Positions 9,355-56,990 of a stretch of 64,000 nucleotides of DNA are shown here, in pieces. How positions within the stretch are numbered: position 1 is the first letter of the stretch; every line of letters begins with the position of its first letter. This DNA is from Candidatus Elulimicrobium sp. (GTDB taxonomy: Bacteria; Patescibacteriota; Minisyncoccia; Phycocordibacterales; UBA918). The position numbers and the translations under genes are program-made. The notes under the pieces are model-generated. The model was not told the origin of the DNA, searched no databases, and was given only the letters and a program-made list of their open reading frames with translations. Location: contig DYNY01000002.1 of NCBI GenBank assembly GCA_020720815.1, positions 5,980-69,979 of the forward strand, in the 5' to 3' direction.

Positions 9355-11544
9355 ATGATAAAAAAATGGTGGAAACACGTCAGTGTTAAAGAATTAATCA
9401 AAGATTTAGTGGCTACGGTTTTTGCCCTATCCATCATCATTTTGGCCGGCTTTTTAATTTGGGTTTCTACATTAGAAATACCAGATCTTTCCTCATTTGA
9501 AGAAAGGCGCGTTCTGCAATCAACTAAAATTTATGACCGCACCGGTGAAGTATTACTTTACGACTTATTTCAAGATGTTCGTCGCACCGTTGTACCATTT
9601 GAAGAAATTTCCCGACATATCAAAAATGCCACCATCGCAATTGAAGACGATCAGTTTTATAACCACCACGGTGTTGAACCAAAAGCGATTGTCCGGGCTG
9701 CTTTAACCAACCTCGGTCAAGGCGATTTATTGGGTGGACAAGGTGGATCAACCCTAACCCAACAAGTCATTAAAAACTCAGTCCTACAGAGAGAGAAAAC
9801 TCTAACTCGTAAAGTTAAAGAGTGGATTTTGGCGATTAAACTTGAGCGGGTTTTAAGCAAGGATGATATTCTTGGTATTTATTTAAATGAATCACCTTAC
9901 GGCGGAACTATTTACGGAGTCGAAGAAGCATCTCAGGCTTTTTTTGCCAAAAAAGCGATCGATGTTTCCTTGAGTGAGGCCGCTTATTTAGCCGCCCTGC
10001 CTCAATCACCTACCTATTTGTCTCCTTATGGAAATAACAAAGAGGCCTTGGACACCAGACAAAAACTAGTCTTGAAAAGAATGCTCGAACAAGGAATGGT
10101 TTCTGAAGAGGAATACAAAATTGCAGAAACTGAGAGTGTTAAATTTCAACCACAGGCTGTTACCGGAATCAGGGCCCCTCACTTTGTGATGTTTGTGCGT
10201 GATCAAATAGTTCGTAAATATGGGGAAGAGGCTCTTTCACAGCGTGGTTTACGTATCATAACCACCCTAGATTGGGATTTACAAAAAGAAGCTGAACGAA
10301 TCGTGGCCGAACGTGGTGCAAGTAACGTCGAAAAATTTAAAGCTACTAATGCCGGTATGGTAGCTACCGATCCAAAAACCGGTGACTTACTTGTAATGGT
10401 CGGTTCGCGTGATTATTTTAGTGAGGAAATAGAAGGCAACTTCAATATCGCCCTAGCCTCCAGACAGCCAGGCTCATCAATCAAGCCATTTATTTATGCA
10501 ACCGCTTTTAGTAAAGGCTTCTTGCCTGATACTATTGTTTTTGATGTTCGCACCCAATTCTCACCACTTTGTCCGCCAGACAGCTTTAGCTCAGAATCTC
10601 CTTGTTATTCTCCTAATAATTACAACAATAAATTTAAGGGTCCAATTAATTTAAGAAATGCTCTAGCTCAATCACTAAACATACCAGCGGTGAAGGTTCT
10701 TTATTTGGCCGGAGTAAAGGATTCCTTAAAATTAGCTGCCGACATGGGTATTACCACCCTCAATGACCCGGAACGCTACGGTCTAACCTTAGTCCTTGGT
10801 GGTGGTGAAGTTAGATTGATAGACATGACTTATGCCTACGGCGTTTTTGCTAATGAGGGTATCGTTGCTGAACCACGGAGTATCCTTAAAGTAGAAGATA
10901 ATCGTGGCAATATCATAGATGAAACTCCTATTGCAACTAAACGTGTTCTTGATAAAAATGTCGCTTTAATGATTAGCAATATACTTTCCGATAATGTGGC
11001 TCGCACGCCACTTTGGGGAGCCAACTCTTTGGTAAACTTTCCTAATCGTTCGGTAGCATCTAAAACCGGTAGTACTAATAATCTACGAGATGCTTGGCTG
11101 ATGGGCTATGCACCAAACATTGCGGTTGGTACCTGGGTTGGTAACAACAATAATAGCCCTATGGGGGGAGGTCTATCTGGCTTAATTGTTACTCCAATGT
11201 GGCGTGAGTTTATGGATTATGCTTTAACTAAATTACCAGAGGAAAGTTTTTCCCAACCAACTATTAATCGAGTCGGGGTAAAGCCGATTATTCGAGGTGA
11301 ATTTATTGACACTACAGAACTATTACAAACTGTATCTACTAGCGGAAAAATTGATATAACACAAATTTACAACAATATTCACACCATTCTCTATTATGTT
11401 GATAAAAATAACTCTACTGGACCAGATCCTATAAACCCCGCCAATGATCCACAATACGAAAACTGGGAATATGCTGTCCAAGCCTGGAAAAAAGAGACCT
11501 ATGGCCTTCCTTTTACATCTAGCACTACTCCAGAGATAAACTAA
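9355..11544 (+). CDS. Class A penicillin-binding protein (bifunctional glycosyltransferase/transpeptidase, PBP1A-like)
   Basis: N-terminal TM, GT51 motifs (EDDQFYNHHGV, GGSTLTQQ), and transpeptidase motifs (SxxK: SIKP, SxN, KTGS). Confidence 0.9.
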   Translation: MIKKWWKHVSVKELIKDLVATVFALSIIILAGFLIWVSTLEIPDLSSFEERRVLQSTKIYDRTGEVLLYDLFQDVRRTVVPFEEISRHIKNATIAIEDDQFYNHHGVEPKAIVRAALTNLGQGDLLGGQGGSTLTQQVIKNSVLQREKTLTRKVKEWILAIKLERVLSKDDILGIYLNESPYGGTIYGVEEASQAFFAKKAIDVSLSEAAYLAALPQSPTYLSPYGNNKEALDTRQKLVLKRMLEQGMVSEEEYKIAETESVKFQPQAVTGIRAPHFVMFVRDQIVRKYGEEALSQRGLRIITTLDWDLQKEAERIVAERGASNVEKFKATNAGMVATDPKTGDLLVMVGSRDYFSEEIEGNFNIALASRQPGSSIKPFIYATAFSKGFLPDTIVFDVRTQFSPLCPPDSFSSESPCYSPNNYNNKFKGPINLRNALAQSLNIPAVKVLYLAGVKDSLKLAADMGITTLNDPERYGLTLVLGGGEVRLIDMTYAYGVFANEGIVAEPRSILKVEDNRGNIIDETPIATKRVLDKNVALMISNILSDNVARTPLWGANSLVNFPNRSVASKTGSTNNLRDAWLMGYAPNIAVGTWVGNNNNSPMGGGLSGLIVTPMWREFMDYALTKLPEESFSQPTINRVGVKPIIRGEFIDTTELLQTVSTSGKIDITQIYNNIHTILYYVDKNNSTGPDPINPANDPQYENWEYAVQAWKKETYGLPFTSSTTPEIN

Positions 11545-11549
11545 CCATT

Positions 11550-11840
11550 TTAAAAAATATACAAGGGTGAATTTTTTTTTTCCAACCGCTTGTTAAGTTC
11601 TTTAAGAATTTCACGACTCTTTATTTTAATCTCCTGTTTTATCATCCCTGACACTTGTAAATTAACCGTTCTAGTACTAACTGTATAAGTGATTTGATTT
11701 TCTTTTATAGAAAGGCCCGTACACTCACCAATTACTCTAATAGTTTCCATTTCCACAGTTTTTTGTGGTGGAATTAGAATATTTTTATATTTACTAAATA
11801 AATCCTTAATAGAAATAACTTCTCCTCTTCTTTTTAACAT
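11550..11840 (-). CDS. DUF721/DciA-like small protein downstream of dnaN
   Basis: 96 aa. Its position immediately after dnaN, plus the pattern IRVIGECTG...TVNLQVSGMIKQEIKIKSREILKELN, fits DUF721 (hydrophobic-G...T...L.V.V.S...EL....IL..LN). The start is 2 nt after the dnaN stop. Confidence 0.45.
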   Translation of the reverse strand: MLKRRGEVISIKDLFSKYKNILIPPQKTVEMETIRVIGECTGLSIKENQITYTVSTRTVNLQVSGMIKQEIKIKSREILKELNKRLEKKNSPLYIF

Positions 11841-11841
11841 A

Positions 11842-12939
11842 CTAACGATTCATTGGCATTACTAAATAACGTAAGGTTTTATCTGACACACCAGTAATAA
11901 CGAGTGGTCTACCAATTCCTGCAAAATGTAAAATTATACTCTCGTCTGAAATATGAGATAAAGGATCACTAATATATTGTTGATTAAAATTAAGCGTTAA
12001 TTCATCTCCCTCAACCACAGCTGGTACCGAGTCTGTAACATGTCCTACTTCATTATTTTGTGAAGACAAGGAAATATTACCTTCTAATACAGATAAAGTG
12101 ACTTGTTGATATTTATTTAAAAAGACTGAGGTTTTTTTAAGGGCTTTCAAAAGGTCATTTTTGAGTACTGTGGCGTGTGAACTGTATTCTTTAGGAATTA
12201 TCTGTTCGTAGTCTGGAAAAGAGCCTGAAACGAGCCTAGAGGTAATATAGACCCCTTCCTCATTAAAAGAGAGAGCACATTGATTTTCAGTTACTAATAA
12301 GTCTGGATCATTTTTTAATAAATCACACAGTCGTGAAAGTTCTACTGCATTTTTTTGTGGTATCAAAAAACCTTGTTCTAAAATAACTCCTTTTTGTGGC
12401 ACAGTTTTTTCCATTAAACGAAAAGAGTCAGTTGAAACAAAAGTTAATGAATGTTCTTTCTTTTGTTGAATATAAACACTGCCAAGCTCTGGCTTAATTG
12501 AAGATAAGGAAGCTGCAAAAGAGGCAGTTTTTATTCCTAATGAAAACAAAGCTCTATTTATTTTAATTACTTCTCCTTTTAGACGATTGATAACTGGAAA
12601 TTCATCGTGTGGAATGGATTTAATAGAAGTATTAGTTTTTTGGGATTCAATTAATAACAAACCTTCTTCTGCCCGTAAACAGATTTCTCCTTCTGTATTA
12701 TATTGGATACTTTGTAATAAAGTATTAGCTGGTACAGCAATAATACCTACTTCTATTACCCGGCAAGGAATCTCTATTTCAATACTTAATTCTAAATTGG
12801 TGGCTTTTAAAATTAATTTTTCTTCTTTAGCTTCTAATAAGACACACTGTAAAACAGGTAGTGTAACATGCTTAGTACTAATTCTAGTCAATAACTCTAA
12901 GGTTTGTGCTAACTGTGGACGAGAAATGTTTATTTCCAT
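11842..12939 (-). CDS. dnaN: DNA polymerase III beta sliding clamp
   Basis: 365 aa with the three-domain clamp architecture. It is adjacent to dnaA. Confidence 0.9.
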   Translation of the reverse strand: MEINISRPQLAQTLELLTRISTKHVTLPVLQCVLLEAKEEKLILKATNLELSIEIEIPCRVIEVGIIAVPANTLLQSIQYNTEGEICLRAEEGLLLIESQKTNTSIKSIPHDEFPVINRLKGEVIKINRALFSLGIKTASFAASLSSIKPELGSVYIQQKKEHSLTFVSTDSFRLMEKTVPQKGVILEQGFLIPQKNAVELSRLCDLLKNDPDLLVTENQCALSFNEEGVYITSRLVSGSFPDYEQIIPKEYSSHATVLKNDLLKALKKTSVFLNKYQQVTLSVLEGNISLSSQNNEVGHVTDSVPAVVEGDELTLNFNQQYISDPLSHISDESIILHFAGIGRPLVITGVSDKTLRYLVMPMNR

Positions 12940-13204
12940 ATTAAAACTATTTTACTATTTATTATTAGGGCTGTGGAAGTGTGCATATATAAAATATATG
13001 TTCTATTGTTTGGCTATTTTATACACAGCTAAGTATTAATAAGTTTAGGATAGAGTAAATTTGCTTGTGTATAAAGAAAATTCTATCTAGTGTTTAGTAA
13101 TTTTGTGGGGATAATATATTTTATACTACCTACTTATACAAAGCTATATATTAGTTTTTACTATACCCTGTCCTTAGTTTGTACACACCCTTTTCCAAGG
13201 TTTA
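12940..13204. promoter_or_regulatory. Probable oriC module: an AT-rich dnaA-dnaN spacer with DnaA-box-like 9-mers
   Basis: TTATACACA at 13019-13027, TGTGTATAA at 13066-13074, TGTGGGGATAA at 13102-13112, TTATACAAA at 13134-13142, and a very AT-rich stretch at 13110-13160. Confidence 0.6.
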
Positions 13205-13232
13205 AAAATAGGGCCGAAGCCCTATTTTTAAA
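13205..13232 (-). terminator. Intrinsic terminator just downstream of the dnaA stop
   Basis: aaaaatagggccgaagccctattttta forms a hairpin with flanking A/T runs. Confidence 0.6.
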
Positions 13233-13234
13233 CT

Positions 13235-14620
13235 CTATTTAAGGAGAATACGAATCTGAGATATTTCCTCTTCTAGCTCAGTATTTAGTTTTAGTTCCGC
13301 TTTAATCTTTTCACAAGAGTGAATAACTGTGGTGTGATCTCTTCCTCCTAATTTTTTACCAATTGCTGGATAAGAAACTTGAAAATCTTCACGGAGTAAG
13401 TACATAATAATTTGTCGTGGTTTTACAATTTCTTTACGACGAGTTTTCTCATAAATACTACTTTGATCAATATCAAAGTAGTGTGCCACTTTATCCACTA
13501 CATCTGAAACTGCTAGAGTCTTACGTGGTCTGGAACTATTCTTAATTATTACCTTGACTTCATCTAGAGACAAAGTTCGACCTAGGAGTTGTGATTGACA
13601 CATAATAGTATTTAGAGCCCCTTCAAGTTCACGTATATTACCTTCAATGGTATAAGCTAAATGATTTACCACTTCGTCAGCTAGGGTAATACTGTTTTGA
13701 GCTGCTTTAGCACGTAAAATAGCGGCCCGAGATTCTAGGTCAGGAGCTGGAATATCAACAATCATACCTTGAGCAAAACGAGAACGGAGTCGATCTTCTA
13801 ATCCAGCTAGTAAAGCTGGGTGCATATCACTAGAAAAAACAATTTGTTTATTAGTATCATGTAAGGCATTAAAAAGATGAAAAAGTTCCTCTTGAGTTTT
13901 TTCTTTAGTAGCTAAGAATTGCACATCGTCCATGATAAGTACGTCATACTGGCGATATTTATCTTTAAATGTATTAGCTGAACCACTTTGGAGGGAGTTA
14001 AAATAATCTACAGCAAAGCGTTCACTAGTGACATAAAATACCTTCTTACCAGTTTTTTTAATCTGATTACCAACCGCTTGAATTAGATGTGTTTTACCGT
14101 GACCGGTTTTGCCATAAATAAAGAGAGGGTTATAAGCAATACCAGGCTTTTCACTAACCGTTTTGGCTGCAGCATGAGCCAAAGCATTATAAGGCCCAAT
14201 AACAAAGGTTTCAAAAGAATATTTAGGATTTAGGTTATCACTTTTATTAATATAATATTCCTCTAAAGGTAAAGCAGCGTTAACGGTTTGGGTCTTACTA
14301 CTCTCCCCGCGACGATCACTTCTTTGTACAACATCATACTCAATACTGCGCACATAAGGAGTTAGTTCACGTAAAGTTTTAAGGATCATTGACTGAAATT
14401 TGTCTTGAAGCCAATCTTTAACAAATACGCTCGGTACGGCTAAGGTAGCCGTACCGTCTTCTAGTGAGAGAATGTAAGTATCTCGAAACCAAGTTTTAAA
14501 GTTGGCTGGAGTAATAGCCAGTTCAATTTTTACTAAAGCATCATCCCAAAGCTTTTTAATATCAATATGTTCAGTCCGTACGATACTAGAGGCAGATGAA
14601 GGATGTGTAATTGGATTCAT
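13235..14620 (-). CDS. dnaA: Chromosomal replication initiator DnaA
   Basis: 461 aa with AAA+ Walker A GKTGHGKTHL and the C-terminal DnaA signature (KKLGGRDHTTVIHS). Confidence 0.95.
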   Translation of the reverse strand: MNPITHPSSASSIVRTEHIDIKKLWDDALVKIELAITPANFKTWFRDTYILSLEDGTATLAVPSVFVKDWLQDKFQSMILKTLRELTPYVRSIEYDVVQRSDRRGESSKTQTVNAALPLEEYYINKSDNLNPKYSFETFVIGPYNALAHAAAKTVSEKPGIAYNPLFIYGKTGHGKTHLIQAVGNQIKKTGKKVFYVTSERFAVDYFNSLQSGSANTFKDKYRQYDVLIMDDVQFLATKEKTQEELFHLFNALHDTNKQIVFSSDMHPALLAGLEDRLRSRFAQGMIVDIPAPDLESRAAILRAKAAQNSITLADEVVNHLAYTIEGNIRELEGALNTIMCQSQLLGRTLSLDEVKVIIKNSSRPRKTLAVSDVVDKVAHYFDIDQSSIYEKTRRKEIVKPRQIIMYLLREDFQVSYPAIGKKLGGRDHTTVIHSCEKIKAELKLNTELEEEISQIRILLK

Positions 14621-14806
14621 ATCAAGATAAATAATCTAAACAGTAATGAGCATTATACCTGCATTAAGGCGACTGTAAAATATTTTGGTTTCGATTAGGA
14701 AATAACAAATCATTTTGAGTCTTTAAAAGTGCAACTGTGTATAACCGGTGTATAAATTAAGACAAACCATTCCCCTTTTGTCGACTATTGAATTATTTAG
14801 GAGTTC
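14621..14806. promoter_or_regulatory. dnaA upstream region carrying two more DnaA-box-like repeats
   Basis: TGTGTATAA at 14737-14745 and GGTGTATAA at 14747-14755 in tandem, the same 9-mer as in the dnaA-dnaN spacer. Confidence 0.55.
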
Positions 14807-14845
14807 ATGTATAGTGTGTCGGTATTTCAAATACTAAATATTTCT

Positions 14846-14995
14846 ATGAGTAAAAGAACCTACCAACCAAGTAAGAAAAAAAGAGCTACAACCCATGGTT
14901 TTCTAGTACGAAGTGAAACTACTTCTGGGGCCAAGGTGCTACGAGAACGTCGTCGAAAGGGGCGTGCCCAACTAACCGTAAAAAAAGCTCGTTAA
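14846..14995 (+). CDS. rpmH: 50S ribosomal protein L34
   Basis: [22 protein letters not shown]...[11 protein letters not shown] is the canonical L34. The track start at 14807 adds a non-conserved extension. Confidence 0.9.
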
Positions 14996-15007
14996 GAGCT
15001 TTTTTTA
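14982..15007 (+). terminator. Hairpin overlapping the rpmH stop, a likely attenuator between rpmH and rnpA
   Basis: aaaaaagctc-gttaa-gagctttttt. Equivalent rpmH-rnpA attenuators are known in other bacteria. Confidence 0.5.
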
Positions 15008-20131: not shown

Positions 20132-21928
20132 CTATGCGCGAGAAGCTTTTAGTTCATCCCGGGAACGTTTTATCTGGAGAAGTTGTGAAGGATCGGAAGT
20201 AATAATCTGATCTTCGGTATATGAGGCAATAACTTTAATCGCAACATGTTTAAGGCCGACGAAGAAGATACCTTCCCCTACTCCTGATTCAAGTAAAAGA
20301 AACTTTTCTTGGTCAGTTAGGTTAAAAGTTTTTTGGATATTGTCAATCGCGGTTGGTGATTGTTTCATCAAAAACTGGATAGAAGAGTTGGTAATCATTG
20401 GTACACCATAAGGCGAACGTAAGAAGTCGTCGACGTCTTGAGTAATGGTAGCAATGCCAAGATAGTACTTACGACCACGCTTGGCTAAGCTAAATAAGAA
20501 GGAGGCTGTGTCTTCAGACTTCATCATCCACCAAGCTTCATCTATCACCAATAGACGCTTTGCTAGGCGACGGCGAACTGATCCCCAAATAAAGTTGGTG
20601 ATAATGTACATGGCGATGGTCTTGAGTTCGTCTTCCATATCGCGCAAAGAGAAAACCACGAACTTTTGGTTAATGTCGACATTAGTAGGTTTATTCATAA
20701 AGCCTGACCAGGTACCAGAGGTATATTTTTGTAATCTGGTAAGGAGCGAGTTGCTACCGTCCATACCAGCTAATACCATTTCAAAGTCGGTTAGTAACGG
20801 TGGTTCTTGGTTGCTGAAGTCTGCGTCACCGGTAATATCCTTAAGAGCATAGGTTTCTTGAATAGCAAGATCTAATACAGTCTCTTCTTCGGGGGTAAGT
20901 CCGCCCATCATAAGGCGGAAGAGACCGATGAGTTCAATAATATGCGTGCGTAAAATATCACTCGGACTTTCGTCAGCTCCTGGTGGTGGTAAGTCAAAGG
21001 GATTGATATGATGATCGGAAGAGAGAGAAATGTTAAAGAATCGCCCACCGGTGGCTTCGGCCAAATACTCGTACTCTTTTTCAGGATCAAGCACAATAAC
21101 TTCTGAACCAAACATTAAGGAGCGGAGAATTTCTAGTTTTAAGCCATATGACTTACCAGCACCAGAAGTAGCAAATGTCACTGAGTTGTAGTTGGTGAGA
21201 GAGAAGCGATCAAATAGTACTAGTGAAGAGTTATGGCGGTTAACTCCATAGAGAATACCGGTATCTGAAGTTAAATCAAAAGATGTAAATGGAAAAAAGC
21301 TCGATAATGGAGCAGAGTTAAACTTGCTGTGCACCAATAATTCATCGGTAGCCATCGGGAGGACACTCTTAATACCCTGTTCTTGTTGGAAAAGCGCTGG
21401 TTTTATGTACACGAGTTTTGAATCGAGCATCCCTTTAATGTTATTTTCAGCCTTATTTAATTCAGCTTCATCCTTGCCATAGATAGTAATGTATAGCCCA
21501 ACATCAAAAAGCTTTTCTTCGGCTTGTTGGAGTTTATCACGTAACTCTTCTAGGTTACGGAAAGCCGCTTCTAGTTGGGGGTCACGCACTTCCCCACGTT
21601 CGGCCTTGATGTTAATTTGACTCTGTACCTCGGCCACTTTTTTTTGGAATTTTTTTAGGGTATCGGCTGTGTCTATCGGGTGAACATAAATTGCTACATC
21701 AAGTTCTTTCTCAATACTTAAAATTGGCTCTAGCCAGCCTTCAGTTAGGTAGCGAGGATAGGCTACAGCATAAAGTACTCGGGCTTGTATCCCACTGATA
21801 TTTAAACTACGAGGAGTAAATTGAATAGCTGATGGCGCAACAACGTCGATAAGGGTCATTAGTTCATCACTAATTTTATCGCCTCTTGGTGTGCTGGTTT
21901 GTGGTTTTAAGAAATCAAAAAGTCCCAT
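20132..21928 (-). CDS. VirB4/TrbE/CagE-family type IV secretion ATPase
   Basis: Walker A ATSGAGKSYGLK, Walker B LLVIDEAWWMM (the DEAW signature), and the motif LAKRGRKYYLGIATITQ. Confidence 0.85.
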   Translation of the reverse strand: MGLFDFLKPQTSTPRGDKISDELMTLIDVVAPSAIQFTPRSLNISGIQARVLYAVAYPRYLTEGWLEPILSIEKELDVAIYVHPIDTADTLKKFQKKVAEVQSQINIKAERGEVRDPQLEAAFRNLEELRDKLQQAEEKLFDVGLYITIYGKDEAELNKAENNIKGMLDSKLVYIKPALFQQEQGIKSVLPMATDELLVHSKFNSAPLSSFFPFTSFDLTSDTGILYGVNRHNSSLVLFDRFSLTNYNSVTFATSGAGKSYGLKLEILRSLMFGSEVIVLDPEKEYEYLAEATGGRFFNISLSSDHHINPFDLPPPGADESPSDILRTHIIELIGLFRLMMGGLTPEEETVLDLAIQETYALKDITGDADFSNQEPPLLTDFEMVLAGMDGSNSLLTRLQKYTSGTWSGFMNKPTNVDINQKFVVFSLRDMEDELKTIAMYIITNFIWGSVRRRLAKRLLVIDEAWWMMKSEDTASFLFSLAKRGRKYYLGIATITQDVDDFLRSPYGVPMITNSSIQFLMKQSPTAIDNIQKTFNLTDQEKFLLLESGVGEGIFFVGLKHVAIKVIASYTEDQIITSDPSQLLQIKRSRDELKASRA

Positions 21929-21931
21929 ATA

Positions 21932-22579
21932 CTATGCGTTTTTAGACGGTGCCGAGCCGGTAGGGTCAGCTGGATTATAGATGTGATAAAATAGCTCAAC
22001 TAAGTCGTCAGTCTTTAGTGGTACAGTCCTTACTCCTACTCCACCAAGTCCATCTTGTACTAGTGCTAAACGTTGATCTAGTTGAATCCGGTGTTCTTCA
22101 AATTGTTGTTCACCAGGTAGGTTGGTTTTTCGTGGACTACCCATAAACATAGAAGTGATACCTTTGGTAATGTTAATTGGGGCTGGAGAATATGGCACTA
22201 CCACATAGAAGTTTTTTTGCATAATATCAACTTCGGTGGTAAAGGTGCGAATAAAATCAATATATTCTCGTAGCTGAATCCGCATGAGGTCGTTATCTTG
22301 GTTGGCCTCACGTGTACCTAGGAGTGCTAGGTAAGGGTCAATATTAAGTCGACGAGATTGTACATAGATCTGTAAAGAAAAATCTAGGGTGTTTAAAAAA
22401 GTTTGAAACTGTTGGAGAATAGCTTGTTGTTCATCGGTTGATTTGAGAGCAAAGTTGACTGATGAAGCTAGTAGGATTGAGCACATCTGGCCGTTCTTAA
22501 GTAAGACCACCCCGTCACGGATGTCTTTAATGGTTACAAAATCTTGGGTAGTAGCTGATGTTTTTGGCATATTATTCAA
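21932..22579 (-). CDS. Cytoplasmic hypothetical protein, possibly a split-off VirB4 N-terminal domain
   Basis: 215 aa sitting immediately upstream of the 598-aa VirB4-like ATPase. The combined length (about 813 aa) equals a canonical VirB4. Confidence 0.5.
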   Translation of the reverse strand: MNNMPKTSATTQDFVTIKDIRDGVVLLKNGQMCSILLASSVNFALKSTDEQQAILQQFQTFLNTLDFSLQIYVQSRRLNIDPYLALLGTREANQDNDLMRIQLREYIDFIRTFTTEVDIMQKNFYVVVPYSPAPINITKGITSMFMGSPRKTNLPGEQQFEEHRIQLDQRLALVQDGLGGVGVRTVPLKTDDLVELFYHIYNPADPTGSAPSKNA

Positions 22580-22988
22580 TTTTCTGCATCGCTTCTAACT
22601 CTAGGCGTCGTGCGAGCGAGATTGGTGGTGATTTAGGAACCACCACACTACTGTTAGTCGGCTTTTCCTCGGTAGAATTTGGCGTGAAAGAATACTTGTA
22701 AGTCTTTTGTTCTTTTTGACGCCAAAGATAGAGTTTAGTTCCTTGAAAATAGTTAATAATTGCTTCGAGGAAAAATGAGAAGGGGCGATTATTAACCGGA
22801 TAAAAAGCTAGTGCTCCGGCCAAAATAGCTAAGGGTAAACCAACTAAAATAAAGATAATAATATTAGCGGTAAAGAAAAGTACCACCCCCATCCCCACTC
22901 CGCCACCTAGATATAAAAATTGTCGCCAGGTTAGAGGGCCAAATATTTTATCCTCAATATCAATAAACTGTGGAACTTCAAATCTCAT
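22572..22988 (-). CDS. Small two-TM protein, VirB3-like by position and topology
   Basis: 138 aa with two adjacent hydrophobic helices (GVVLFFTANIIIFILVGLPLAILAGALAFY). It is encoded just upstream of the VirB4 genes, as in many T4SS loci. Confidence 0.45.
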   Translation of the reverse strand: MRFEVPQFIDIEDKIFGPLTWRQFLYLGGGVGMGVVLFFTANIIIFILVGLPLAILAGALAFYPVNNRPFSFFLEAIINYFQGTKLYLWRQKEQKTYKYSFTPNSTEEKPTNSSVVVPKSPPISLARRLELEAMQKIE

Positions 22989-32569: not shown

Positions 32570-32628
32570 AAAACTAAAACCACTGAACACCTACTCTGTA
32601 ATTAGGTGTGTTCAGTGGTTTTAGTTTG
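32570..32628. terminator. Long bidirectional terminator hairpin between the convergent M23 gene and comM
   Basis: aaaactaaaaccactgaacacc...ggtgtgttcagtggttttagttt forms a 22-bp stem. Confidence 0.7.
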
Positions 32629-34132
32629 GAATACGGTAAGAAAGGGCTTCTAGGACATGTTTAGCTTCAATTTCAGTGGCTTCATCGAGGTCGGCAATTG
32701 TCCGAGATACTTTTAATAAGCGGTGATAACTTCGTGGTGATAGATTAAGTTTGGTGGCTGAAAGCTTAAGTAAATCTTTTACCTCGTCATTAATAATTAA
32801 ATAGTGATCAATATCACGACTAGTCATTTCAGCATTGGTGAATATTCCACGGTCGACTAATCTAGCTACTTGGATTGACCTGGCTTTGGTAATTTCTGTC
32901 CTAGCCCTCTCTGTCTCTCCTTCTGGGCGCACTAAATTGGCTAATGTTTCATGTGGTATATGAAGTACTTCAATCCATAAATCAATACGGTCAAGAATTG
33001 GGCCAGATATTTTTTCTTTATAAGTTTCTTTCATTGCTCTAGCTAGGTTGGTAGTACCATCTTCTACTCCACGGTAGGGATTCATTGCCGCTACTAAAAT
33101 AAAATCAGCTGGAAAAACCGCCGTACCCTGGATCCTAGAAATACTAACTACCCTATCTTCTAGTGGTTGTCTTAAAGCATCCAAACTACGTCTTTCAAAC
33201 TCTGGAAACTCATCCATAAATAAGACACCTTTATGAGCGAGAGTCACTTCGCCTGGTTTTGGTTGTGAACCACCACCCACAAGCGCTGTATAAGAGGCTG
33301 TGTGATGGGGAGATCTGAAAGGGGGTATCGAGCTGATAGTTTCCAGGTTCCCGTTAGTGGAATGAATAGCTGTGACGGCCAAGGCATCACTACGGGATAG
33401 TGGTGGTAGTAAACCCTGAAAAGCTCTGGCCAACATTGTCTTACCAGTACCGGGTGGGCCGACTAAAATGACATTATGCCGGCCCGCTGCAGCAATTATT
33501 AGCGCTCGTTTGGCGCTTTCTTGCCCCTTGATATCTTCTAGTACCACTTTACTTTGTCCCCAGGCGGGGGCTATTTCAGTAGTTTTTTGTATCAGGAGTA
33601 GTTGGTGATTGGGATGATTTATTTCACAATGTAGAATAACTTCACGCAATGAGGTGGCTCCATAAATATCAATTCCTTCTACCAAACCTGCTTCCTCAGC
33701 ATTAGCTTTAGGTACAATGACTTTTTTGTAACCATTTAGTTTAGCCACCAGAACGATATTCAAGACTCCTTTTATTGGTCTTAAACTGCCATCCAGACCA
33801 AGCTCACCAACAAAAATAGTATCGGTCACTGGAGAAATTTCTTCCGTGGCGATTAAATAAGCCAAAGCGATAGGGAGATCAAATAAAGGTCCTTCCTTTT
33901 TTAAATCAGCCGGTGATAGCGAAATAGTTATTTTTTGGTTTTGACTTTTTGGTGAATCATAATCAGTATGTTTAATAGCACTACTAACCCTGTCCCTAGC
34001 TTCCTCAATAGCTTTACCAGCCAAACCAACAATTGAAAATGAATGTAATCCTCTAGATAAGTCGGCCTCGATACAAACAACGGTGCCAGATAGAATGTGT
34101 GGTTGTACCGTGTATGTCTTCGCGATGGCCAT
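32621..34132 (-). CDS. comM: YifB/ComM-family Mg-chelatase-like AAA+ ATPase
   Basis: Lon-like N-domain, Walker A ILVGPPGTGKTML, Walker B VLFMDEFPEF, and a C-terminal ChlI-like domain. Confidence 0.9.
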   Translation of the reverse strand: MAIAKTYTVQPHILSGTVVCIEADLSRGLHSFSIVGLAGKAIEEARDRVSSAIKHTDYDSPKSQNQKITISLSPADLKKEGPLFDLPIALAYLIATEEISPVTDTIFVGELGLDGSLRPIKGVLNIVLVAKLNGYKKVIVPKANAEEAGLVEGIDIYGATSLREVILHCEINHPNHQLLLIQKTTEIAPAWGQSKVVLEDIKGQESAKRALIIAAAGRHNVILVGPPGTGKTMLARAFQGLLPPLSRSDALAVTAIHSTNGNLETISSIPPFRSPHHTASYTALVGGGSQPKPGEVTLAHKGVLFMDEFPEFERRSLDALRQPLEDRVVSISRIQGTAVFPADFILVAAMNPYRGVEDGTTNLARAMKETYKEKISGPILDRIDLWIEVLHIPHETLANLVRPEGETERARTEITKARSIQVARLVDRGIFTNAEMTSRDIDHYLIINDEVKDLLKLSATKLNLSPRSYHRLLKVSRTIADLDEATEIEAKHVLEALSYRIPN

Positions 34133-52420: not shown

Positions 52421-52465
52421 TAAAATACAAAATGCCGGCCTTGCGCTGGCATTTTGTATTTTAGG
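52421..52465. terminator. 15-bp hairpin immediately 3' of tRNA-Arg
   Basis: aaaatacaaaatgcc...ggcattttgtatttt. Confidence 0.6.
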
Positions 52466-52544
52466 TCCAGGACTCGAAGCTGATGCGAGATATCTTTTCG
52501 AGCGAAGCGAAGGAAAGTATCCGCATCGGGTACTGAACATGTAA

Positions 52545-52567
52545 GGTTCGAGTCCTGGCAGGTGCAC
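52545..52567 (+). repeat. Exact 23-bp direct repeat of the tRNA-Arg 3' end
   Basis: ggttcgagtcctggcaggtgcac at 52397-52419 and again at 52545-52567. Between them, 52466-52478 is an inverted copy of the T arm. There is no matching 5' tRNA half. Confidence 0.65.
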
Positions 52568-52663
52568 ATCGTAAATTACAAAAAGAGCCGGCGTTTTAGT
52601 GGTTCCTTGTATTTTAGTCTTTGTACAGGAGGTTGATTTATAGTGTGCTACTATTTATAGTAT

Positions 52664-53559: not shown

Positions 53560-54240
53560 ATGGCAGATTCATCTGGTCACTACAAACAAGAAGCCTACGA
53601 GCAAGCAATTGCCTTTCGGAAGCGAGGTTTTACGTATACAGAGATTGCTAAGATTTGTGGCGTATCGGTCGGTACTGCCAGTACTTGGCTTAAGCCACTA
53701 CCGTTCTCATTTAAGATAACGGCCCAAAATAAAGCTAGAGCGGCACAGGATAATAAGAAACGCATGGTTTCAATCAACAAGGCGCGCACTGCCGAACGGG
53801 CGAAGCAATATGACCAGGTGGTACGAATGGCGGAGACTGAATATCAAAATTATCGGCATTCCCCTCTCTTTATAGCCGGTCTAATGCTTTATATTAGCGA
53901 GGGAGACAATGTTAGTACCAGGCTAATACGGCTATCTAGTAGTCGGCCGGAGTTACATAAAATTTTTATTAAATTTCTCTTAACCTACCTGGGAGTAGTT
54001 AAATCTTCGATTAAGTTTTGGCTACTCTTGTACCCAGATCTAGATGAAGTCACTTGTATGAAACATTGGAGTAAAAAAACAGGTATTTCAGTTGCCCAAT
54101 TTTATAAGAATCAATTTATAAACGGTCGTAGTACCAAACCAACGTTGCATTTTGGCGTTGGGAATACTATAATCGGCAATACTCTACTAAAACAGAAGCT
54201 CGCAAAATGGGTCGAACTACTGCATAAAGAGTTAAAATAA
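53560..54240 (+). CDS. Hypothetical protein with an N-terminal HTH and a degenerate LAGLIDADG-like segment
   Basis: GFTYTEIAKICGVSVGTASTWLK is a resolvase/sigma-like HTH. PLFIAGLMLYISEGDN is reminiscent of, but does not match, LAGLIDADG. Confidence 0.5.
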   Translation: MADSSGHYKQEAYEQAIAFRKRGFTYTEIAKICGVSVGTASTWLKPLPFSFKITAQNKARAAQDNKKRMVSINKARTAERAKQYDQVVRMAETEYQNYRHSPLFIAGLMLYISEGDNVSTRLIRLSSSRPELHKIFIKFLLTYLGVVKSSIKFWLLLYPDLDEVTCMKHWSKKTGISVAQFYKNQFINGRSTKPTLHFGVGNTIIGNTLLKQKLAKWVELLHKELK

Positions 54241-54246
54241 TTAAAT

Positions 54247-54317
54247 GCGGCCATGGTTAAGTGGCATAACGAGTCCTTGCCAAGGATTAGTCGGGGTTTC
54301 GATTACCCCTGGCCGCA
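54247..54317 (+). tRNA. tRNA-Gly (anticodon GCC)
   Basis: Manual fold: acceptor GCGGCCA/TGGCCGC, D arm GTTA-AGTGGCA-TAAC, anticodon arm AGTCC-TTGCCAA-GGATT, T arm GGGGT-TTCGATT-ACCCC, discriminator A. Confidence 0.85.
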
Positions 54318-54324
54318 CGAGTAC

Positions 54325-54356: not shown

Positions 54357-54479
54357 TCGTACGGCCAGAGTAAGTGCCTTGTGGCACTTACGTAGGTAAT
54401 CGAAAAAGCTTTTGAGGTGAATTATGAGTTCGTGAAATAATTCATCCAAAAGGTGTACAGCGACTGTAGGTCGGCGAAT

Positions 54480-54495
54480 TTACCCCTGGCCGCAC
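54480..54495 (+). repeat. Exact 16-bp direct repeat of the tRNA-Gly 3' end
   Basis: ttacccctggccgcac at 54303-54318 and at 54480-54495. Downstream of it the sequence turns markedly AT-rich. Confidence 0.65.
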
Positions 54496-54700
54496 CAATA
54501 ATAAACAGTCACAACATACATTGTGACTGTAAAATTAGAAAAACTTTAAAGATAAATATTCACAATGCGGTAAAGTCAGGTCTAATATATAAGACATCCT
54601 GCACTGTCTTATATGGGGATAAGACAGTGCATAAGTGGATAAAGGACAACAAATTAATAACTAAATATTAGATTAGCCATATTTGCCAATAGATTATATA

Positions 54701-54744
54701 AATATGTACCACGTGAAACATTTATTATTTGTTACACGTAGAAC
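54701..54744 (+). repeat. Upstream repeat block of the yraN-like gene
   Basis: ccacgtgaaacat (54709-54721) recurs at 55309-55321. gttacacgtagaac (54731-54744) recurs inside the ORF at 55016-55029. Confidence 0.6.
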
Positions 54745-54784
54745 AAGTTGAAGTATGACTTTAATACGATGATATAATCTACTA

Positions 54785-55207
54785 GTGTTAGATTATCTTA
54801 GCGGTAACAGTAAATCTACAAATAAACAGATTGGATCTTGGGGTGAAACTATTGCTACTAATTATTTAAAAAGAAAGGGATATACGATTCTTGATCGTAA
54901 TTATCTTAAGAAATGGGGTGAGATTGACATAGTAGCACGTGGAACTAATGGAAAAATTCATTTTGTTGAAGTAAAGGCTGTTTCATATGAAACAAAACGA
55001 CATTTAAGCAATGCCGTTACACGTAGAACCTGGCGTCCTGAGGAAAATGTTCATTTTTTTAAGTTAAAAAAGCTAAATCGAGTTATAGAGTCTTGGCTAA
55101 TGGAAAAGAATTATACAAAGGAATGGCAAATTGATGTTATTGCAGTTAGGCTTGTTCCACGTGAAAAGTACGCCTCATTAAAGCTAATTCCTAACATTGT
55201 ATTGTGA
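54785..55207 (+). CDS. yraN: YraN/UPF0102-family PD-(D/E)xK endonuclease-like protein
   Basis: GSWGETIATNYLKRKGYTIL...GEIDIVARGTNGKIHFVEVKAV...IDVIAV matches the UPF0102 signature. Confidence 0.8.
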   Translation: MLDYLSGNSKSTNKQIGSWGETIATNYLKRKGYTILDRNYLKKWGEIDIVARGTNGKIHFVEVKAVSYETKRHLSNAVTRRTWRPEENVHFFKLKKLNRVIESWLMEKNYTKEWQIDVIAVRLVPREKYASLKLIPNIVL

Positions 55208-55300
55208 TTTTGTTATAATTTCATTTACTTTATTAAATTACTGGTTGAGTTTCATGTGTAACAAAAGATTATTTTATTTAATTAATCGAGTAAAGTAAAT

Positions 55301-55321
55301 AATGTATGCCACGTGAAACAT
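55301..55321 (+). repeat. Downstream copy of the CACGTG-containing flank repeat
   Basis: aatgtatgccacgtgaaacat versus the upstream aatatgtaccacgtgaaacat. Further CACGTG cores lie inside the ORF at 54936 and 55161. Confidence 0.6.
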
Positions 55322-55440
55322 AAATTTATAATAATGCATACAAAAATATAGGTTTTTTCTTAAATGTGTTTTTACAACTAATTCGTAATAATAAGTTATC
55401 TTACTTTGAGATAATCATTTTAATGATGTAATATTAAAAT

Positions 55441-55713
55441 ATGAATGAAGGATATATTAAGAAATTACAACCTGATAATGAATTAAGTAAAGGTAAAAAA
55501 TCAGCACAAACGATTTCTTTTGAAGCTATAGCAGGAACTGATAAATTAAGATTAACTATGTGTGATGGTGTGAATCATTGGTTTGAGGAGGAAGAGGTGA
55601 CAGAAGGTGTGACAGGAGGACTTGATTTATCAATTGACAAATTAGACGGAAAATTTAAGTGTGATTGTCCTGATAAAGATAATCGAAAAGATGCTTTTGG
55701 ACTTTTTAAATAA
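55441..55713 (+). CDS. Hypothetical small protein (90 aa), very AT-rich gene
   Basis: The ORF has a C-terminal CDC pair. No motif recognised. Confidence 0.45.
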   Translation: MNEGYIKKLQPDNELSKGKKSAQTISFEAIAGTDKLRLTMCDGVNHWFEEEEVTEGVTGGLDLSIDKLDGKFKCDCPDKDNRKDAFGLFK

Positions 55714-55814
55714 GGATAATTAGTTTAAATGGGGAGTTGTAAAGTTTTAAGTTTACTTGAAGAGGTGAACATAATAATCTAATTCAATTAAGCCTTAATT
55801 TCTTCGCGATCATT

Positions 55815-55845
55815 TAATAAAACTCAACTAAAAGTTGAGTTTTAT
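55815..55845. terminator. Bidirectional terminator between the 90-aa gene and tRNA-Pro
   Basis: aataaaactcaac-taaaa-gttgagttttatt. Confidence 0.7.
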
Positions 55846-55852
55846 TAAACAT

Positions 55853-55923
55853 GTCGGGGAGCCGGGAATCGAACCCGGACCACTCGGTCCCAAACCGAGT
55901 ACACTACCACTATGCTACACCCC
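55853..55923 (-). tRNA. tRNA-Pro (anticodon TGG)
   Basis: Reverse complement CGGGGTG-TA-GCAT-AGTGGTA-GTGT-A-CTCGG-TTTGGGA-CCGAG-TGGT-CCGGG-TTCGATT-CCCGG-CTCCCCG-A. There is one U-U mismatch in the acceptor stem (position 6:67). Confidence 0.75.
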
Positions 55924-56000
55924 GATGAGTGAGAGGAGTCAGAAGACTTTGTTCCGGGGTGTAAGGAGCACACGTTTTCTGACTTCCGAGCGAAGAAAGG

Positions 56001-56990
56001 GTGAAAGCTTTGCTTACAACCCTACTCGCTACTTATCTAAACCAGATGAACCGATTTAGTGCTCACGATAATAGCATATTGAGCGGAAAATGCGAGACCG
56101 TGTTTAGCTCATTATTAATGTATAATATAAACCTTATGCCTGAAAGCTTTTCAAAAATAGAAATTAACTTTACATATAAAGAACGTGATTTTTATCAAAG
56201 ACTTGCTTCTCTACCACATGAAATTGCCGAACGATGGCGTGAAGAATATGAGAATTTGCCGGAAATAACAGATGATTTTTTCATTCGCTTTGACCAGTTT
56301 TGTATTTTTAGGAATCAAGCAATGGATAGTTCGCTTGAATTAGATGAAGAAATTAGTGATGAAATTAGACTTGAAATTGAGGGAGTTAAAAAAGTAGTTA
56401 GAGAAACTTTTGGCGACCCACAGCATTTTCTGGGTAATGGATACACCGCTGAGGTTTACGAATTACCGGTCGCTCCGCATTTGTGTGTAAAGTATATTCA
56501 TAATCAAGAAGCTTATAACGAAAATAATCATATTCGCGTGGAGCATAATTTTCTAGCGGAACTAAGAAAATTTACTGTAGAAGGAGTGCGAAGTCCGCTT
56601 CCTTACTTTGTTCGTATACACCCGAGTGAGGGTCACTCATATGGTATGGAAAAAATTAATGGTAAAAACTTGTCTCAAATACTAGAACGCCAGTCTGATA
56701 ATATTGAACTAATAGCAATGCTTAAGACACTAGACAGAGAAACTGTAAAGAAAAATTTGTTGGCCTACGTTACTTCACTGCATGATACATGTAAAATTAC
56801 ACACGGAGATCTATTCCAGCGGAATATCATGGTAGATGAAGAAGGAAAATTTTACATTATTGATTTCGGTAAAGCTAAACGAGAGGAAATTGGGGAAGAT
56901 CACGAAGGGCGCCGCAAAATAGACATTGCTACATTAACTTCTGAGATAGGGGTTTTCTTTAATGCTATTGACAAACTAGATATAGTTTGA
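56001..56990 (+). CDS. Protein-kinase-like (APH/Kdo-kinase/RIO-like) fold protein with a roughly 110-aa N-terminal extension
   Basis: Gly-rich loop LGNGYTAEVY, lysine CVKYI, catalytic HGDLFQRNIMV, and IIDFG. The start is uncertain (GTG 56001, or ATG at 56046, 56118 or 56136). Confidence 0.65.
   Translation: MKALLTTLLATYLNQMNRFSAHDNSILSGKCETVFSSLLMYNINLMPESFSKIEINFTYKERDFYQRLASLPHEIAERWREEYENLPEITDDFFIRFDQFCIFRNQAMDSSLELDEEISDEIRLEIEGVKKVVRETFGDPQHFLGNGYTAEVYELPVAPHLCVKYIHNQEAYNENNHIRVEHNFLAELRKFTVEGVRSPLPYFVRIHPSEGHSYGMEKINGKNLSQILERQSDNIELIAMLKTLDRETVKKNLLAYVTSLHDTCKITHGDLFQRNIMVDEEGKFYIIDFGKAKREEIGEDHEGRRKIDIATLTSEIGVFFNAIDKLDIV

What the first reader, a model, noticed from the sequence alone, without database searches (positions are those of the whole stretch)
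54498..55852. AT-rich islet between tRNA-Gly and tRNA-Pro: YraN-like nuclease gene flanked by CACGTG-containing direct repeats
The YraN/UPF0102 PD-(D/E)xK-like gene is bracketed by a roughly 20-bp imperfect direct repeat (aatatgtaccacgtgaaacat at 54701 and aatgtatgccacgtgaaacat at 55301). A second 14-bp repeat, gttacacgtagaac, occurs both upstream (54731) and inside the ORF (55016). The palindromic core CACGTG occurs at least four times in about 700 bp of AT-rich DNA, at 54712, 54936, 55161 and 55312. A 90-aa AT-rich ORF follows. This repeat-flanked nuclease cassette inside a tRNA-bounded islet could be a miniature mobile or defence-related module, or a gene controlled by a CACGTG-binding factor.
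Basis: seen in the sequence. Interest (0 to 1): 0.55.

Follow-up and report, generated by a model that had tools for sequence, protein, structure and literature searches.

The report
parS centromere cluster embedded in yraN
The CACGTG repeats in and around this small nuclease gene are copies of parS, the near-universal bacterial centromere sequence, and they are kept at this locus across a whole class of ultra-small Patescibacteria, so the "islet" is most likely the chromosome's segregation site, not a mobile or defence cassette.

Summary
Its consensus in 80 related genomes, (T/C)GTT(T/C)CACGTGAAAC(A/G), equals the canonical chromosomal parS site TGTTNCACGTGAAACA.

The window has eight parS-like sites in 616 bp (54705-55320): two upstream of yraN, four inside its reading frame and two downstream. 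There is essentially none elsewhere in the 64 kb.

The same arrangement recurs in 77 of 80 Paceibacteria loci, at 33 times the density of the flanks. Synteny is fixed: cca, tRNA-Arg, an HTH gene, tRNA-Gly, yraN, tRNA-Pro. The in-gene sites are held by selection on synonymous codons: Arg is CGT in 41 of 41 genes at one site, against 14% background.

The cluster lies about 43 kb from the replication origin. The origin is placed at dnaN/dnaA by a sign flip of third-codon-position GC skew at about 11.5 kb.

Best reading: a ParB-binding centromere. Mobile or defence cassette: refuted. Ordinary operator: unlikely. No parB gene is in the window, so binding is inferred.

Two side findings: a conserved DnaA-box pair just upstream of the parS sites, and a covarying structured element that follows tRNA genes and copies their 3' ends.

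The parts
54614..54622 (+). DnaA-box-like 9-mer TGGGGATAA, first of a tandem pair
   Evidence: One mismatch to TGTGGATAA. A box at the equivalent position occurs in 73 of 78 related loci, and 132 of 140 boxes share this orientation.
54634..54642 (+). DnaA-box-like 9-mer AGTGGATAA, followed by the conserved AGGACAA; second of the pair, 20 bp from the first
   Evidence: A 20-bp box spacing is the commonest (36 cases). The median distance from the last box to the first parS is 104 bp.
54705..54720 (.). parS-1, TGTACCACGTGAAACA, 1 mismatch; intergenic, upstream of yraN
   Evidence: An equivalent upstream site is present in most related loci.
54730..54745 (.). parS-2, TGTTACACGTAGAACA, 2 mismatches (CACGTA core); intergenic.
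   Evidence: The same TGTTACACGTAGAACA occurs in L003, L004, L007 and L032.
54770..54778 (+). Candidate extended -10 promoter TGaTATAAT, ending 6 nt before the GTG start, which would make the yraN mRNA leaderless
   Evidence: Read from the sequence. L003 has TGcTATAAT at the same position. This is inference only.
54785..55207 (+). yraN (UPF0102, PD-(D/E)xK nuclease), 140 aa, GTG start
   Evidence: Pfam PF02021 at 4e-20 and NCBIfam YraN models. E21, D48, E62 and K64 are identical in all 81 genes.
54931..54946 (.). parS-A, AGTAGCACGTGGAACT, 4 mismatches (2 in the 14-bp core); in the CDS, codons V50-A51-R52-G53-T54
   Evidence: Codon choice is biased only at the four site positions: Arg52 is CGT in 36 of 45 genes.
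54979..54994 (.). parS-B, TGTTTCATATGAAACA, a perfect palindrome with a CATATG core (2 mismatches); in the CDS, V66-S67-Y68-E69-T70
   Evidence: Synonymous positions are fixed: GTT 72/75, TCA 58/69, TAT 53/54, GAA 64/64. The distant relatives L061 and L078 have CACGTG at or near this position.
55015..55030 (.). parS-C, CGTTACACGTAGAACC, 4 mismatches (2 in the core); in the CDS, V78-T79-R80-R81-T82.
   Evidence: Arg80 is CGT in 31 of 33 genes.
55153..55168 (.). parS-D, TGTTCCACGTGAAAAG, 2 mismatches; in the CDS, V124-P125-R126-E127-K128
   Evidence: Arg126 is CGT in 41 of 41 genes and Pro125 is CCA in 42 of 43.
55248..55263 (.). parS-7, AGTTTCATGTGTAACA (reverse complement TGTTACACATGAAACT), 2 mismatches; intergenic, downstream of yraN
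55305..55320 (.). parS-8, TATGCCACGTGAAACA, 2 mismatches; intergenic, downstream of yraN
   Evidence: A downstream site is present in most related loci.
55441..55713 (+). 90-aa ORF, strain-specific filler; not part of the conserved module
   Evidence: No Pfam, NCBIfam, PADLOC or PHROG hit. tblastn finds it only in L001 and L002, which are the same strain.
55813..55849 (.). Perfect 17-bp hairpin between the 90-aa ORF and tRNA-Pro; likely a bidirectional terminator
   Evidence: inverted repeat I2.
11842..14620 (-). dnaN and dnaA, marking the replication origin region (context for the distance to the parS cluster)
   Evidence: Pfam. Third-codon-position GC skew on the + strand flips from about -0.3 to positive at about 11.5 kb, whatever the gene strand. 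The cumulative GC skew minimum is at about 12 kb.

Best explanation
The islet carries the chromosome's centromere: an array of eight parS-like 16-bp palindromes in 616 bp, around and inside yraN.

Shown here:
- The sites match the canonical parS consensus.
- They are confined to this locus within the 64-kb window.
- They are conserved at this locus across a class-level clade.
- The four sites inside the gene are maintained by selection on the DNA itself, while YraN keeps its catalytic residues.
- The array lies about 43 kb from the replication origin.

Inferred from established ParABS biology:
- ParB dimers nucleate on the palindromes, bind CTP, close into clamps and slide onto flanking DNA.
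- This builds a partition complex that ParA moves and that loads SMC near the origin.
- Packing many sites, some degenerate, into 0.6 kb would raise the ParB loading rate and make the centromere robust to loss of single sites.
- The conserved tandem DnaA boxes about 70-100 bp upstream may link the replication initiator to the centromere, as reported for Caulobacter.
- ParB bound at the two upstream sites could also dampen yraN transcription.
For: (1) Motif identity. 131 intergenic CACGTG sites next to yraN in 80 genomes give the consensus (T/C)GTT(T/C)CACGTGAAAC(A/G); 14 match exactly and 33 have one mismatch. The published parS consensus is TGTTNCACGTGAAACA (PMC7022226).

(2) Local excess in the window. 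13 strand-hits against 2.0 +/- 1.5 expected, with 12 of them in 54705-55320.

(3) Conservation. Sites with up to 2 mismatches occur at 2.43 per kb around yraN against 0.073 per kb in the flanks. 77 of 80 loci have at least one site; the median is 4. This holds although the YraN proteins are only 38-70% identical.

(4) Selection on the DNA inside the gene. CGT makes up 14% of Arg codons elsewhere in yraN, but 36/45, 31/33 and 41/41 at three of the sites. The only alignment columns with strong codon-choice bias (G > 60) are residues 51-53, 66-67, 69, 78-81 and 125-126. The 81 genes hold 121 in-CDS sites, against 12.3 +/- 3.5 after resampling synonymous codons.

(5) Origin proximity. dnaN, dnaA, rpmH, rnpA and yidC lie at 11.8-16.1 kb, and the GC3 skew flips sign at about 11.5 kb. 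[quoted passage not shown]

(6) Stable synteny.

(7) ParA and ParB exist in Patescibacteria and score as growth-defective or essential in the transposon screen of cultivated Southlakia (PMC10633639 supplement).
Against: No parB or parA gene lies in the window. None lies in the 80 flanking loci either. I could not check the rest of this genome or any Paceibacteria genome.

Four of the eight window sites depart from the central CACGTG (two CACGTA, one CATATG, one CATGTG), and two sites have 4 mismatches, so not all may bind ParB.

The distance from the origin could not be measured in the related genomes.

In relatives, GC3 skew steps from about 0.02 left of the locus to about 0.17 right of it, independent of gene strand. 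The centromere reading does not explain this.
Confidence: 0.85

Rival explanations
1. The palindromes are operators of a dedicated, non-ParB transcription factor that controls yraN. This is the reader's second suggestion: for example, a dimeric regulator with a TGT-N10-ACA frame.
For: The two upstream sites sit 40-80 bp before the yraN start, next to a candidate promoter. The motif is a dimer-type palindrome.
Against: The consensus is identical over 14-16 positions to parS. Sites also lie at four fixed in-frame positions inside the gene and downstream of it, which an operator does not need. No other promoter in the 64-kb window or in about 730 kb of flanking DNA from relatives carries the motif, apart from a few sites within 2.7 kb of yraN, so there is no sign of a regulon.
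Confidence: 0.05
2. The islet is, or once was, the replication origin: DnaA boxes plus AT-rich DNA, with parS alongside.
For: A tandem DnaA-box pair is conserved upstream of yraN in 73 of 78 loci, at 4.5 per kb against 0.36 per kb elsewhere. The islet is 28.8% GC. In relatives, GC3 skew steps up at the locus, and a few loci show a change of sign (L064: -0.18 left, +0.25 right).
Against: In this window GC3 skew is positive on both sides of yraN and changes sign only at about 11.5 kb, beside dnaN and dnaA. Four further DnaA-box-like 9-mers lie in the two intergenic regions flanking dnaA. Most relatives show a left-flank skew near zero, not negative.
Confidence: 0.05
3. A miniature mobile or defence cassette: a nuclease gene bracketed by direct repeats that are target-site duplications or element ends.
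For: An AT-rich segment between two tRNA genes, a nuclease gene, and flanking similar 20-mers.
Against: The locus and its neighbours are syntenic across most of the 80 species-level genomes. The 'ends' are palindromes that also occur inside the gene. No integrase or transposase is in the islet. PADLOC and PHROGs give only weak partial matches that do not cover any family model. yraN is a conserved gene with invariant catalytic residues.
Confidence: 0.01
4. The motifs act at the RNA level, as small hairpins or protein-binding sites in the yraN mRNA.
For: Each 16-mer can form a 6-bp hairpin with an ACGU loop, and four of them lie inside the transcript.
Against: In many relatives sites lie several hundred bp beyond the yraN stop, and in some they sit inside cca and def, which are encoded on the opposite strand to yraN, so one mRNA cannot carry them all. 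Conservation is of sequence, not of pairing. The sequence equals a well-known DNA site.
Confidence: 0.02

Closest known systems
Chromosomal parS sites of the ParABS system (B. subtilis Spo0J sites and their homologues across bacteria; consensus TGTTNCACGTGAAACA)
   Same: Same 16-bp palindrome. Several copies lie within the origin-proximal domain. Some copies inside coding sequence is also the case in B. subtilis (from memory: one site lies in spo0J).
   Different: Eight sites are packed into 0.6 kb, whereas the chromosomal systems tabulated in PMC7022226 have 2-22 sites in total (their spacing is not given there). Four sites are embedded in frame in one 420-bp gene. The host gene, yraN, is the same across a class of Patescibacteria. 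No parAB operon lies within 54 kb on one side or 9 kb on the other. ParB binding has not been tested.
Caulobacter crescentus centromere, where DnaA binds DnaA boxes in the parS region (Mera et al. 2014, as reviewed in PMC6399470)
   Same: DnaA-box motifs lie immediately beside the parS sites, away from the origin itself.
   Different: Here the evidence is only sequence conservation (two boxes, 20 bp apart, in 73 of 78 loci). No binding or segregation phenotype is known, and the lineage is unrelated.
Plasmid centromere arrays (for example F sopC; from memory)
   Same: A dense array of ParB-binding sites acts as one centromere.
   Different: Those are plasmid-specific repeats in non-coding DNA. 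Here the sites are canonical chromosomal parS overlapping a functional gene.
YraN / UPF0102 nucleases, reported as partners of the ComM helicase in resolving the transformation D-loop (bioRxiv 10.1101/2024.02.06.579203)
   Same: The host gene is a bona fide member of this family. A ComM-type gene (Mg-chelatase/ChlI/Lon-like domains) lies in the same window at 32621-34132.
   Different: No link between yraN and parS is reported in the papers I could search. Whether ParB occupancy affects YraN expression is unknown.

Membership tests
Chromosomal parS (ParABS centromere) | 16-bp palindrome matching TGTTNCACGTGAAACA | tested here: met
   Window sites have 1-4 mismatches. The clade consensus from 131 intergenic sites is identical to the published consensus.
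Chromosomal parS (ParABS centromere) | [quoted passage not shown] | tested here: met
   The cluster lies about 43 kb from the GC3-skew sign change at dnaN/dnaA. The definition is from PMC7022226. Genome size is unknown; the two near-complete relatives are about 1 Mb. This was not testable in the related loci.
Chromosomal parS (ParABS centromere) | Conserved beyond neutral expectation | tested here: met
   33-fold density excess, in 77 of 80 loci. Synonymous-site constraint is confined to the sites.
Chromosomal parS (ParABS centromere) | A cognate ParB (ParB N-terminal domain plus HTH) encoded in the same genome | not testable with these tools
   None in the 64-kb window (Pfam on 54 ORFs; phmmer) or in the 80 loci. 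The rest of the genome is not available. ParAB is present in the cultivated patescibacterium Southlakia.
Chromosomal parS (ParABS centromere) | ParB binds and spreads from the sites | not testable with these tools
   This needs EMSA, BLI or ChIP-seq.
YraN / UPF0102 | Profile match above the curated threshold, and PD-(D/E)xK catalytic residues | tested here: met
   PF02021 at 72.4 bits against a cutoff of 23.6. E21, D48, E62 and K64 are invariant in 81 genes. The NCBIfam equivalog models are matched but below their cutoffs.
Mobile element or defence island | Variable presence, element ends or target-site duplications, recombinase or known defence genes | tested here: not met
   Synteny is fixed across most of the 80 genomes. 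The repeats are internal palindromes. No recombinase is in the islet, and PADLOC gives only weak partial nuclease-domain matches.
Replication origin (oriC) | DnaA-box cluster | tested here: met
   Two boxes with one mismatch each, conserved in 73 of 78 loci.
Replication origin (oriC) | Strand-compositional switch at the site | tested here: not met
   In the window, GC3 skew is positive on both sides of yraN and switches at about 11.5 kb. It is inconclusive in relatives.
Transcription-factor operator | Sites confined to promoter regions of one or more regulated genes | tested here: not met
   Sites also lie inside and downstream of the gene, and no other promoters carry them.

The most novel reading that the evidence does not exclude
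In Paceibacteria the centromere may be a composite control hub rather than a bare set of ParB sites. A tandem DnaA-box pair, a promoter and a parS array are fused to, and partly written into, the gene for the recombination nuclease YraN. DnaA and ParB occupancy would then couple replication initiation, origin segregation and expression of a transformation/recombination nuclease. On this reading the yraN reading frame is retained partly as a scaffold for four in-frame centromere sites, which encode V-x-R-E/G-T pentapeptides.
Probability: 0.2. Interest if true: 0.6.

Novelty: new member of a known kind. Interest (0 to 1): 0.4.

Why it matters
It locates the likely centromere of a large, almost entirely uncultivated bacterial class, using a motif that can be scanned for in any assembled genome. 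The conserved tRNA-Gly, yraN, tRNA-Pro landmark could help to orient and check genome assemblies.

It also supplies cis elements (parS, and possibly DnaA boxes) that would be needed for stable vectors in Patescibacteria, where genetics has only just begun.

It is an unusually clear case of dual coding. Four protein-binding DNA sites are maintained inside a 420-bp gene for a functional enzyme, visible as complete fixation of a rare Arg codon.

A conserved DnaA-box pair beside parS in a lineage unrelated to Caulobacter would suggest that crosstalk between initiator and centromere is more general than thought.

It is also a warning: short repeats flanking a nuclease gene next to tRNAs can look like a mobile element and be nothing of the kind.

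Tried and rejected
- LexA/SOS box of Patescibacteria: considered at first. The primary paper is not held, and a citing paper describes the motif as a direct repeat. I dropped this once the motif matched parS.
- CRP/FNR-type operator (TGT-N10-ACA frame): rejected for the same reason.
- Restriction or methylation site (CACGTG): the hexamer is not depleted or enriched overall, and conservation extends over 16 bp.
- Finding parB: tblastn and phmmer with memory-typed Spo0J and Soj sequences found nothing in the window or in 80 loci. Walking off the window ends gave only 6.7 kb more and no ParB. I ran no further search on ParB, because its top hits could not be restricted to this lineage.
- Literature: no paper in the held library links parS to Patescibacteria or to yraN. 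Livny et al. 2007 is not held.
- Origin at the islet: tested with window-wide and per-gene GC3 skew and rejected for this genome.
- HTH gene 53560-54240 as a candidate site-binding protein: no informative PDB or NCBIfam match.
- Promoter/terminator scan of the islet: uninformative.

Full report
**What is there.** The window comes from a Patescibacteria genome of the Paceibacteria / Nomurabacteria type. The closest YraN relatives are all from such assembled genomes. tRNA-Gly(GCC) lies at 54247-54318 and tRNA-Pro(TGG) at 55853-55924 on the opposite strand. Between them are a 140-aa YraN/UPF0102 nuclease gene (54785-55207; PF02021, E=4e-20) and a 90-aa ORF (55441-55713) with no family match.

**More than chance.** CACGTG is not enriched in the window as a whole (8 copies, 7.1 expected). 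But four of the eight copies lie within about 600 bp. No other rare hexamer clusters like this in the window.

**One motif, not several.** Read in register, all the sites share GTWnCACGTRRAAC.

**The decisive comparison.** I fetched 80 yraN loci from species-level genomes. Nearly all have the same CACGTG cluster around yraN: upstream, at fixed positions inside the gene, and just downstream. Their YraN proteins are only 38-70% identical to this one.

**The motif is parS.**
- The consensus of 131 intergenic sites is (T/C)GTT(T/C)CACGTGAAAC(A/G).
- This is the canonical chromosomal parS site, TGTTNCACGTGAAACA, bound by ParB/Spo0J in most bacteria (PMC7022226).
- Searching the window for that 16-mer with up to 3 mismatches gives 13 strand-hits against 2.0 +/- 1.5 expected. 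Twelve of them lie at six positions in 54705-55320.
- Adding two weaker sites with CACGTG or CACGTA cores (54931, 55015) gives eight parS-like sites in 616 bp.

**Conservation and selection.**
- Across the 80 loci, sites with up to 2 mismatches occur at 2.43 per kb around yraN and 0.073 per kb elsewhere. Most of the sites outside the yraN region lie within 2.7 kb upstream. 77 of 80 loci have at least one site.
- The four in-gene sites sit in frame as xCA-CGT-Gxx and encode V-[A/S/T/P]-[R/Y]-[E/G/R]-[T/K].
- Codon usage shows that the DNA itself is under selection. CGT makes up 14% of Arg codons elsewhere in yraN, but 36/45, 31/33 and 41/41 at three of the sites.
- At the fourth site, GTT-TCA-TAT-GAA is nearly fixed.
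- A per-column test finds strong codon-choice bias only at residues 51-53, 66-67, 69, 78-81 and 125-126.
- Resampling synonymous codons reduces the in-gene sites from 121 to 12.3 +/- 3.5 across 81 genes.
- The nuclease's catalytic residues are invariant, so the gene is functional and carries two overlapping constraints.

**Not mobile, not defence.**
- The order cca, tRNA-Arg(TCG), HTH gene, tRNA-Gly(GCC), yraN, tRNA-Pro(TGG) is conserved across most of the 80 loci.
- The 90-aa ORF and a 72-aa ORF upstream occur only in contigs of the same strain.
- PADLOC and PHROGs give only weak partial matches that do not cover any family model.

**Position on the chromosome.**
- The window contains dnaN (11842-12939), dnaA (13235-14620), rpmH, rnpA and yidC.
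- Third-codon-position GC skew on the + strand is about -0.3 for every gene left of 11.5 kb. It is positive for nearly every gene to the right, whatever the gene's strand.
- So the origin is at dnaN/dnaA, and the parS array lies about 43 kb away. That is inside the origin domain as usually defined.

**What is inferred.**
- ParB binding, CTP-dependent sliding, SMC loading and ParA-driven movement are taken from the established ParABS mechanism.
- No parB or parA gene is in the window (Pfam on all 54 long ORFs; phmmer) or in the 80 loci. I could not search the rest of any Paceibacteria genome.
- A cultivated patescibacterium, Southlakia, does have adjacent parA and parB genes that score as growth-defective or essential (PMC10633639 supplement).
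- I put 0.85 on the centromere reading.

**DnaA boxes.**
- About 70-90 bp upstream of the first parS lie two DnaA-box-like 9-mers, 20 bp apart and in the same orientation (54614 TGGGGATAA; 54634 AGTGGATAA, followed by AGGACAA).
- Boxes at this position occur in 73 of 78 loci, at 4.5 per kb against 0.36 per kb elsewhere. 132 of 140 share the orientation. Many relatives have perfect TGTGGATAA boxes.
- This raised the possibility that the islet is the origin. The window's GC3 skew rules that out for this genome.
- In relatives, GC3 skew steps from about 0.02 to about 0.17 across the locus. I cannot explain that step.
- The closest precedent is Caulobacter, where DnaA binds boxes in the parS region (PMC6399470).

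**Novelty.** parS is a known kind of element, and parS inside genes is known. I found no paper in the held library that describes parS in Patescibacteria or any link between parS and yraN. What is unusual is the density (eight sites in 0.6 kb), four in-frame sites in one small gene, the class-wide fixation on yraN, and the adjacent DnaA boxes. I rate it a new member of a known kind, of moderate interest.

**Side finding.**
- Downstream of tRNA genes in this clade lies a structured element of about 115-150 nt. It begins with the antisense of that tRNA's T-loop and 3' T-stem and ends with a 13-22 nt copy of that tRNA's 3' end.
- The window has two copies: 52454-52572 after tRNA-Arg, and 54381-54500 after tRNA-Gly.
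- A covariance model built from seven units finds 58 hits. Fifty of them lie just downstream of a same-strand tRNA: Gly, Arg or Pro.
- On 34 hits, 30 of 31 pairs show compensatory changes. The covariation score is 0.59, against 0.17 in shuffles and 0.06-0.12 with slid partners. The alignment was fitted to the model, which favours the structure.
- Rfam has no match.
- This may deserve its own study.

Noticed in passing
window 52454-52572 (+) and 54381-54500 (+); 56 further hits in L003-L082: A family of structured elements, about 115-150 nt, lies 34-66 nt downstream of tRNA genes (Gly-GCC, Arg-TCG, Pro-TGG, Gly-TCC). Each starts with the antisense of that tRNA's T-loop and 3' T-stem. It then has a long hairpin, a conserved GGUGUACUG, and a short hairpin with a GUAA loop. 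It ends with a 13-22 nt copy of that tRNA's own 3' end. Covariation is strong (30 of 31 pairs compensatory on 34 hits) and Rfam has no match. It could be a new non-coding RNA or a miniature integrative element; this is unresolved.
   Followed up: partly
window 54614-54642; equivalent positions in 73 of 78 related loci: A conserved tandem pair of DnaA-box-like 9-mers, 20 bp apart in one orientation, followed by AGGACAA, lies about 100 bp upstream of the first parS. A similar pair-plus-AAGACAA arrangement lies in the dnaA-rpmH spacer at 14736.
   Followed up: partly
window 11500-15000: The replication origin region: dnaN, dnaA, rpmH, rnpA and yidC, with very AT-rich spacers (27-28% GC) flanking dnaN, a 35% GC dnaA-rpmH spacer, and four DnaA-box-like 9-mers in the two spacers next to dnaA. 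GC3 skew flips sign at about 11.5 kb.
   Followed up: partly
window 17000-48000: Almost all genes in this 30-kb block next to the origin are on the - strand, so they would be transcribed head-on to replication coming from about 12 kb. Yet their GC3 skew fits the + strand being the leading strand. The orientation is unusual and unexplained.
   Followed up: no
L003-L082, flanks of yraN: In relatives, GC3 skew on the yraN-sense strand steps from about 0.02 (left flank) to about 0.17 (right flank), whatever the gene orientation. A few loci (L064, L059, L082, L030) have clearly negative left flanks. This is not seen in the window and is unexplained.
   Followed up: partly
window 32621-34132 (-): A ComM/YifB-type protein (ChlI, Mg_chelatase and Mg_chelatase_C domains plus a Lon-like N-terminus). 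ComM is the reported helicase partner of YraN in natural transformation (bioRxiv 10.1101/2024.02.06.579203).
   Followed up: no
window 53560-54240 (+); 59 of the 80 related loci, with extra paralogs in L003, L007, L016, L025 and L037: A conserved 226-aa protein with an N-terminal HTH and what looks by eye like a LAGLIDADG motif (FIAGLMLYISEGD; no Pfam LAGLIDADG match). It usually sits between tRNA-Arg and tRNA-Gly and ends 7 nt before tRNA-Gly. Its function is unknown; it may be linked to the tRNA-trailer elements.
   Followed up: partly
L065 3092-4570 (cca); L038 4575-5096 (def); also L034, L039, L073, L079: In some relatives, extra parS-like sites lie 0.4-2.7 kb upstream of yraN, inside the CCA-adding enzyme and deformylase genes. 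In cca, reading by eye, they encode [V/L]-[S/T]-R-[V/E/G]-T. The centromere array appears to spread into neighbouring genes.
   Followed up: partly
window 54770-54787: An extended -10 element (TGaTATAAT) ends 6 nt before the GTG start of yraN, and L003 has TGcTATAAT followed by ATG at the same spacing. The yraN mRNA may be leaderless.
   Followed up: no
window 20132-22988 (-): Genes for a TraG-like P-loop ATPase and a PrgI-family protein lie among ORFs with no family match. This resembles the type IV secretion-like system described for Patescibacteria.
   Followed up: no
window 56001-56990 (+): A protein-kinase-like gene directly after tRNA-Pro, with weak matches to PADLOC PD-T4-6 kinase models (E about 1e-9). 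It is found at this position in only one other locus, L008.
   Followed up: no
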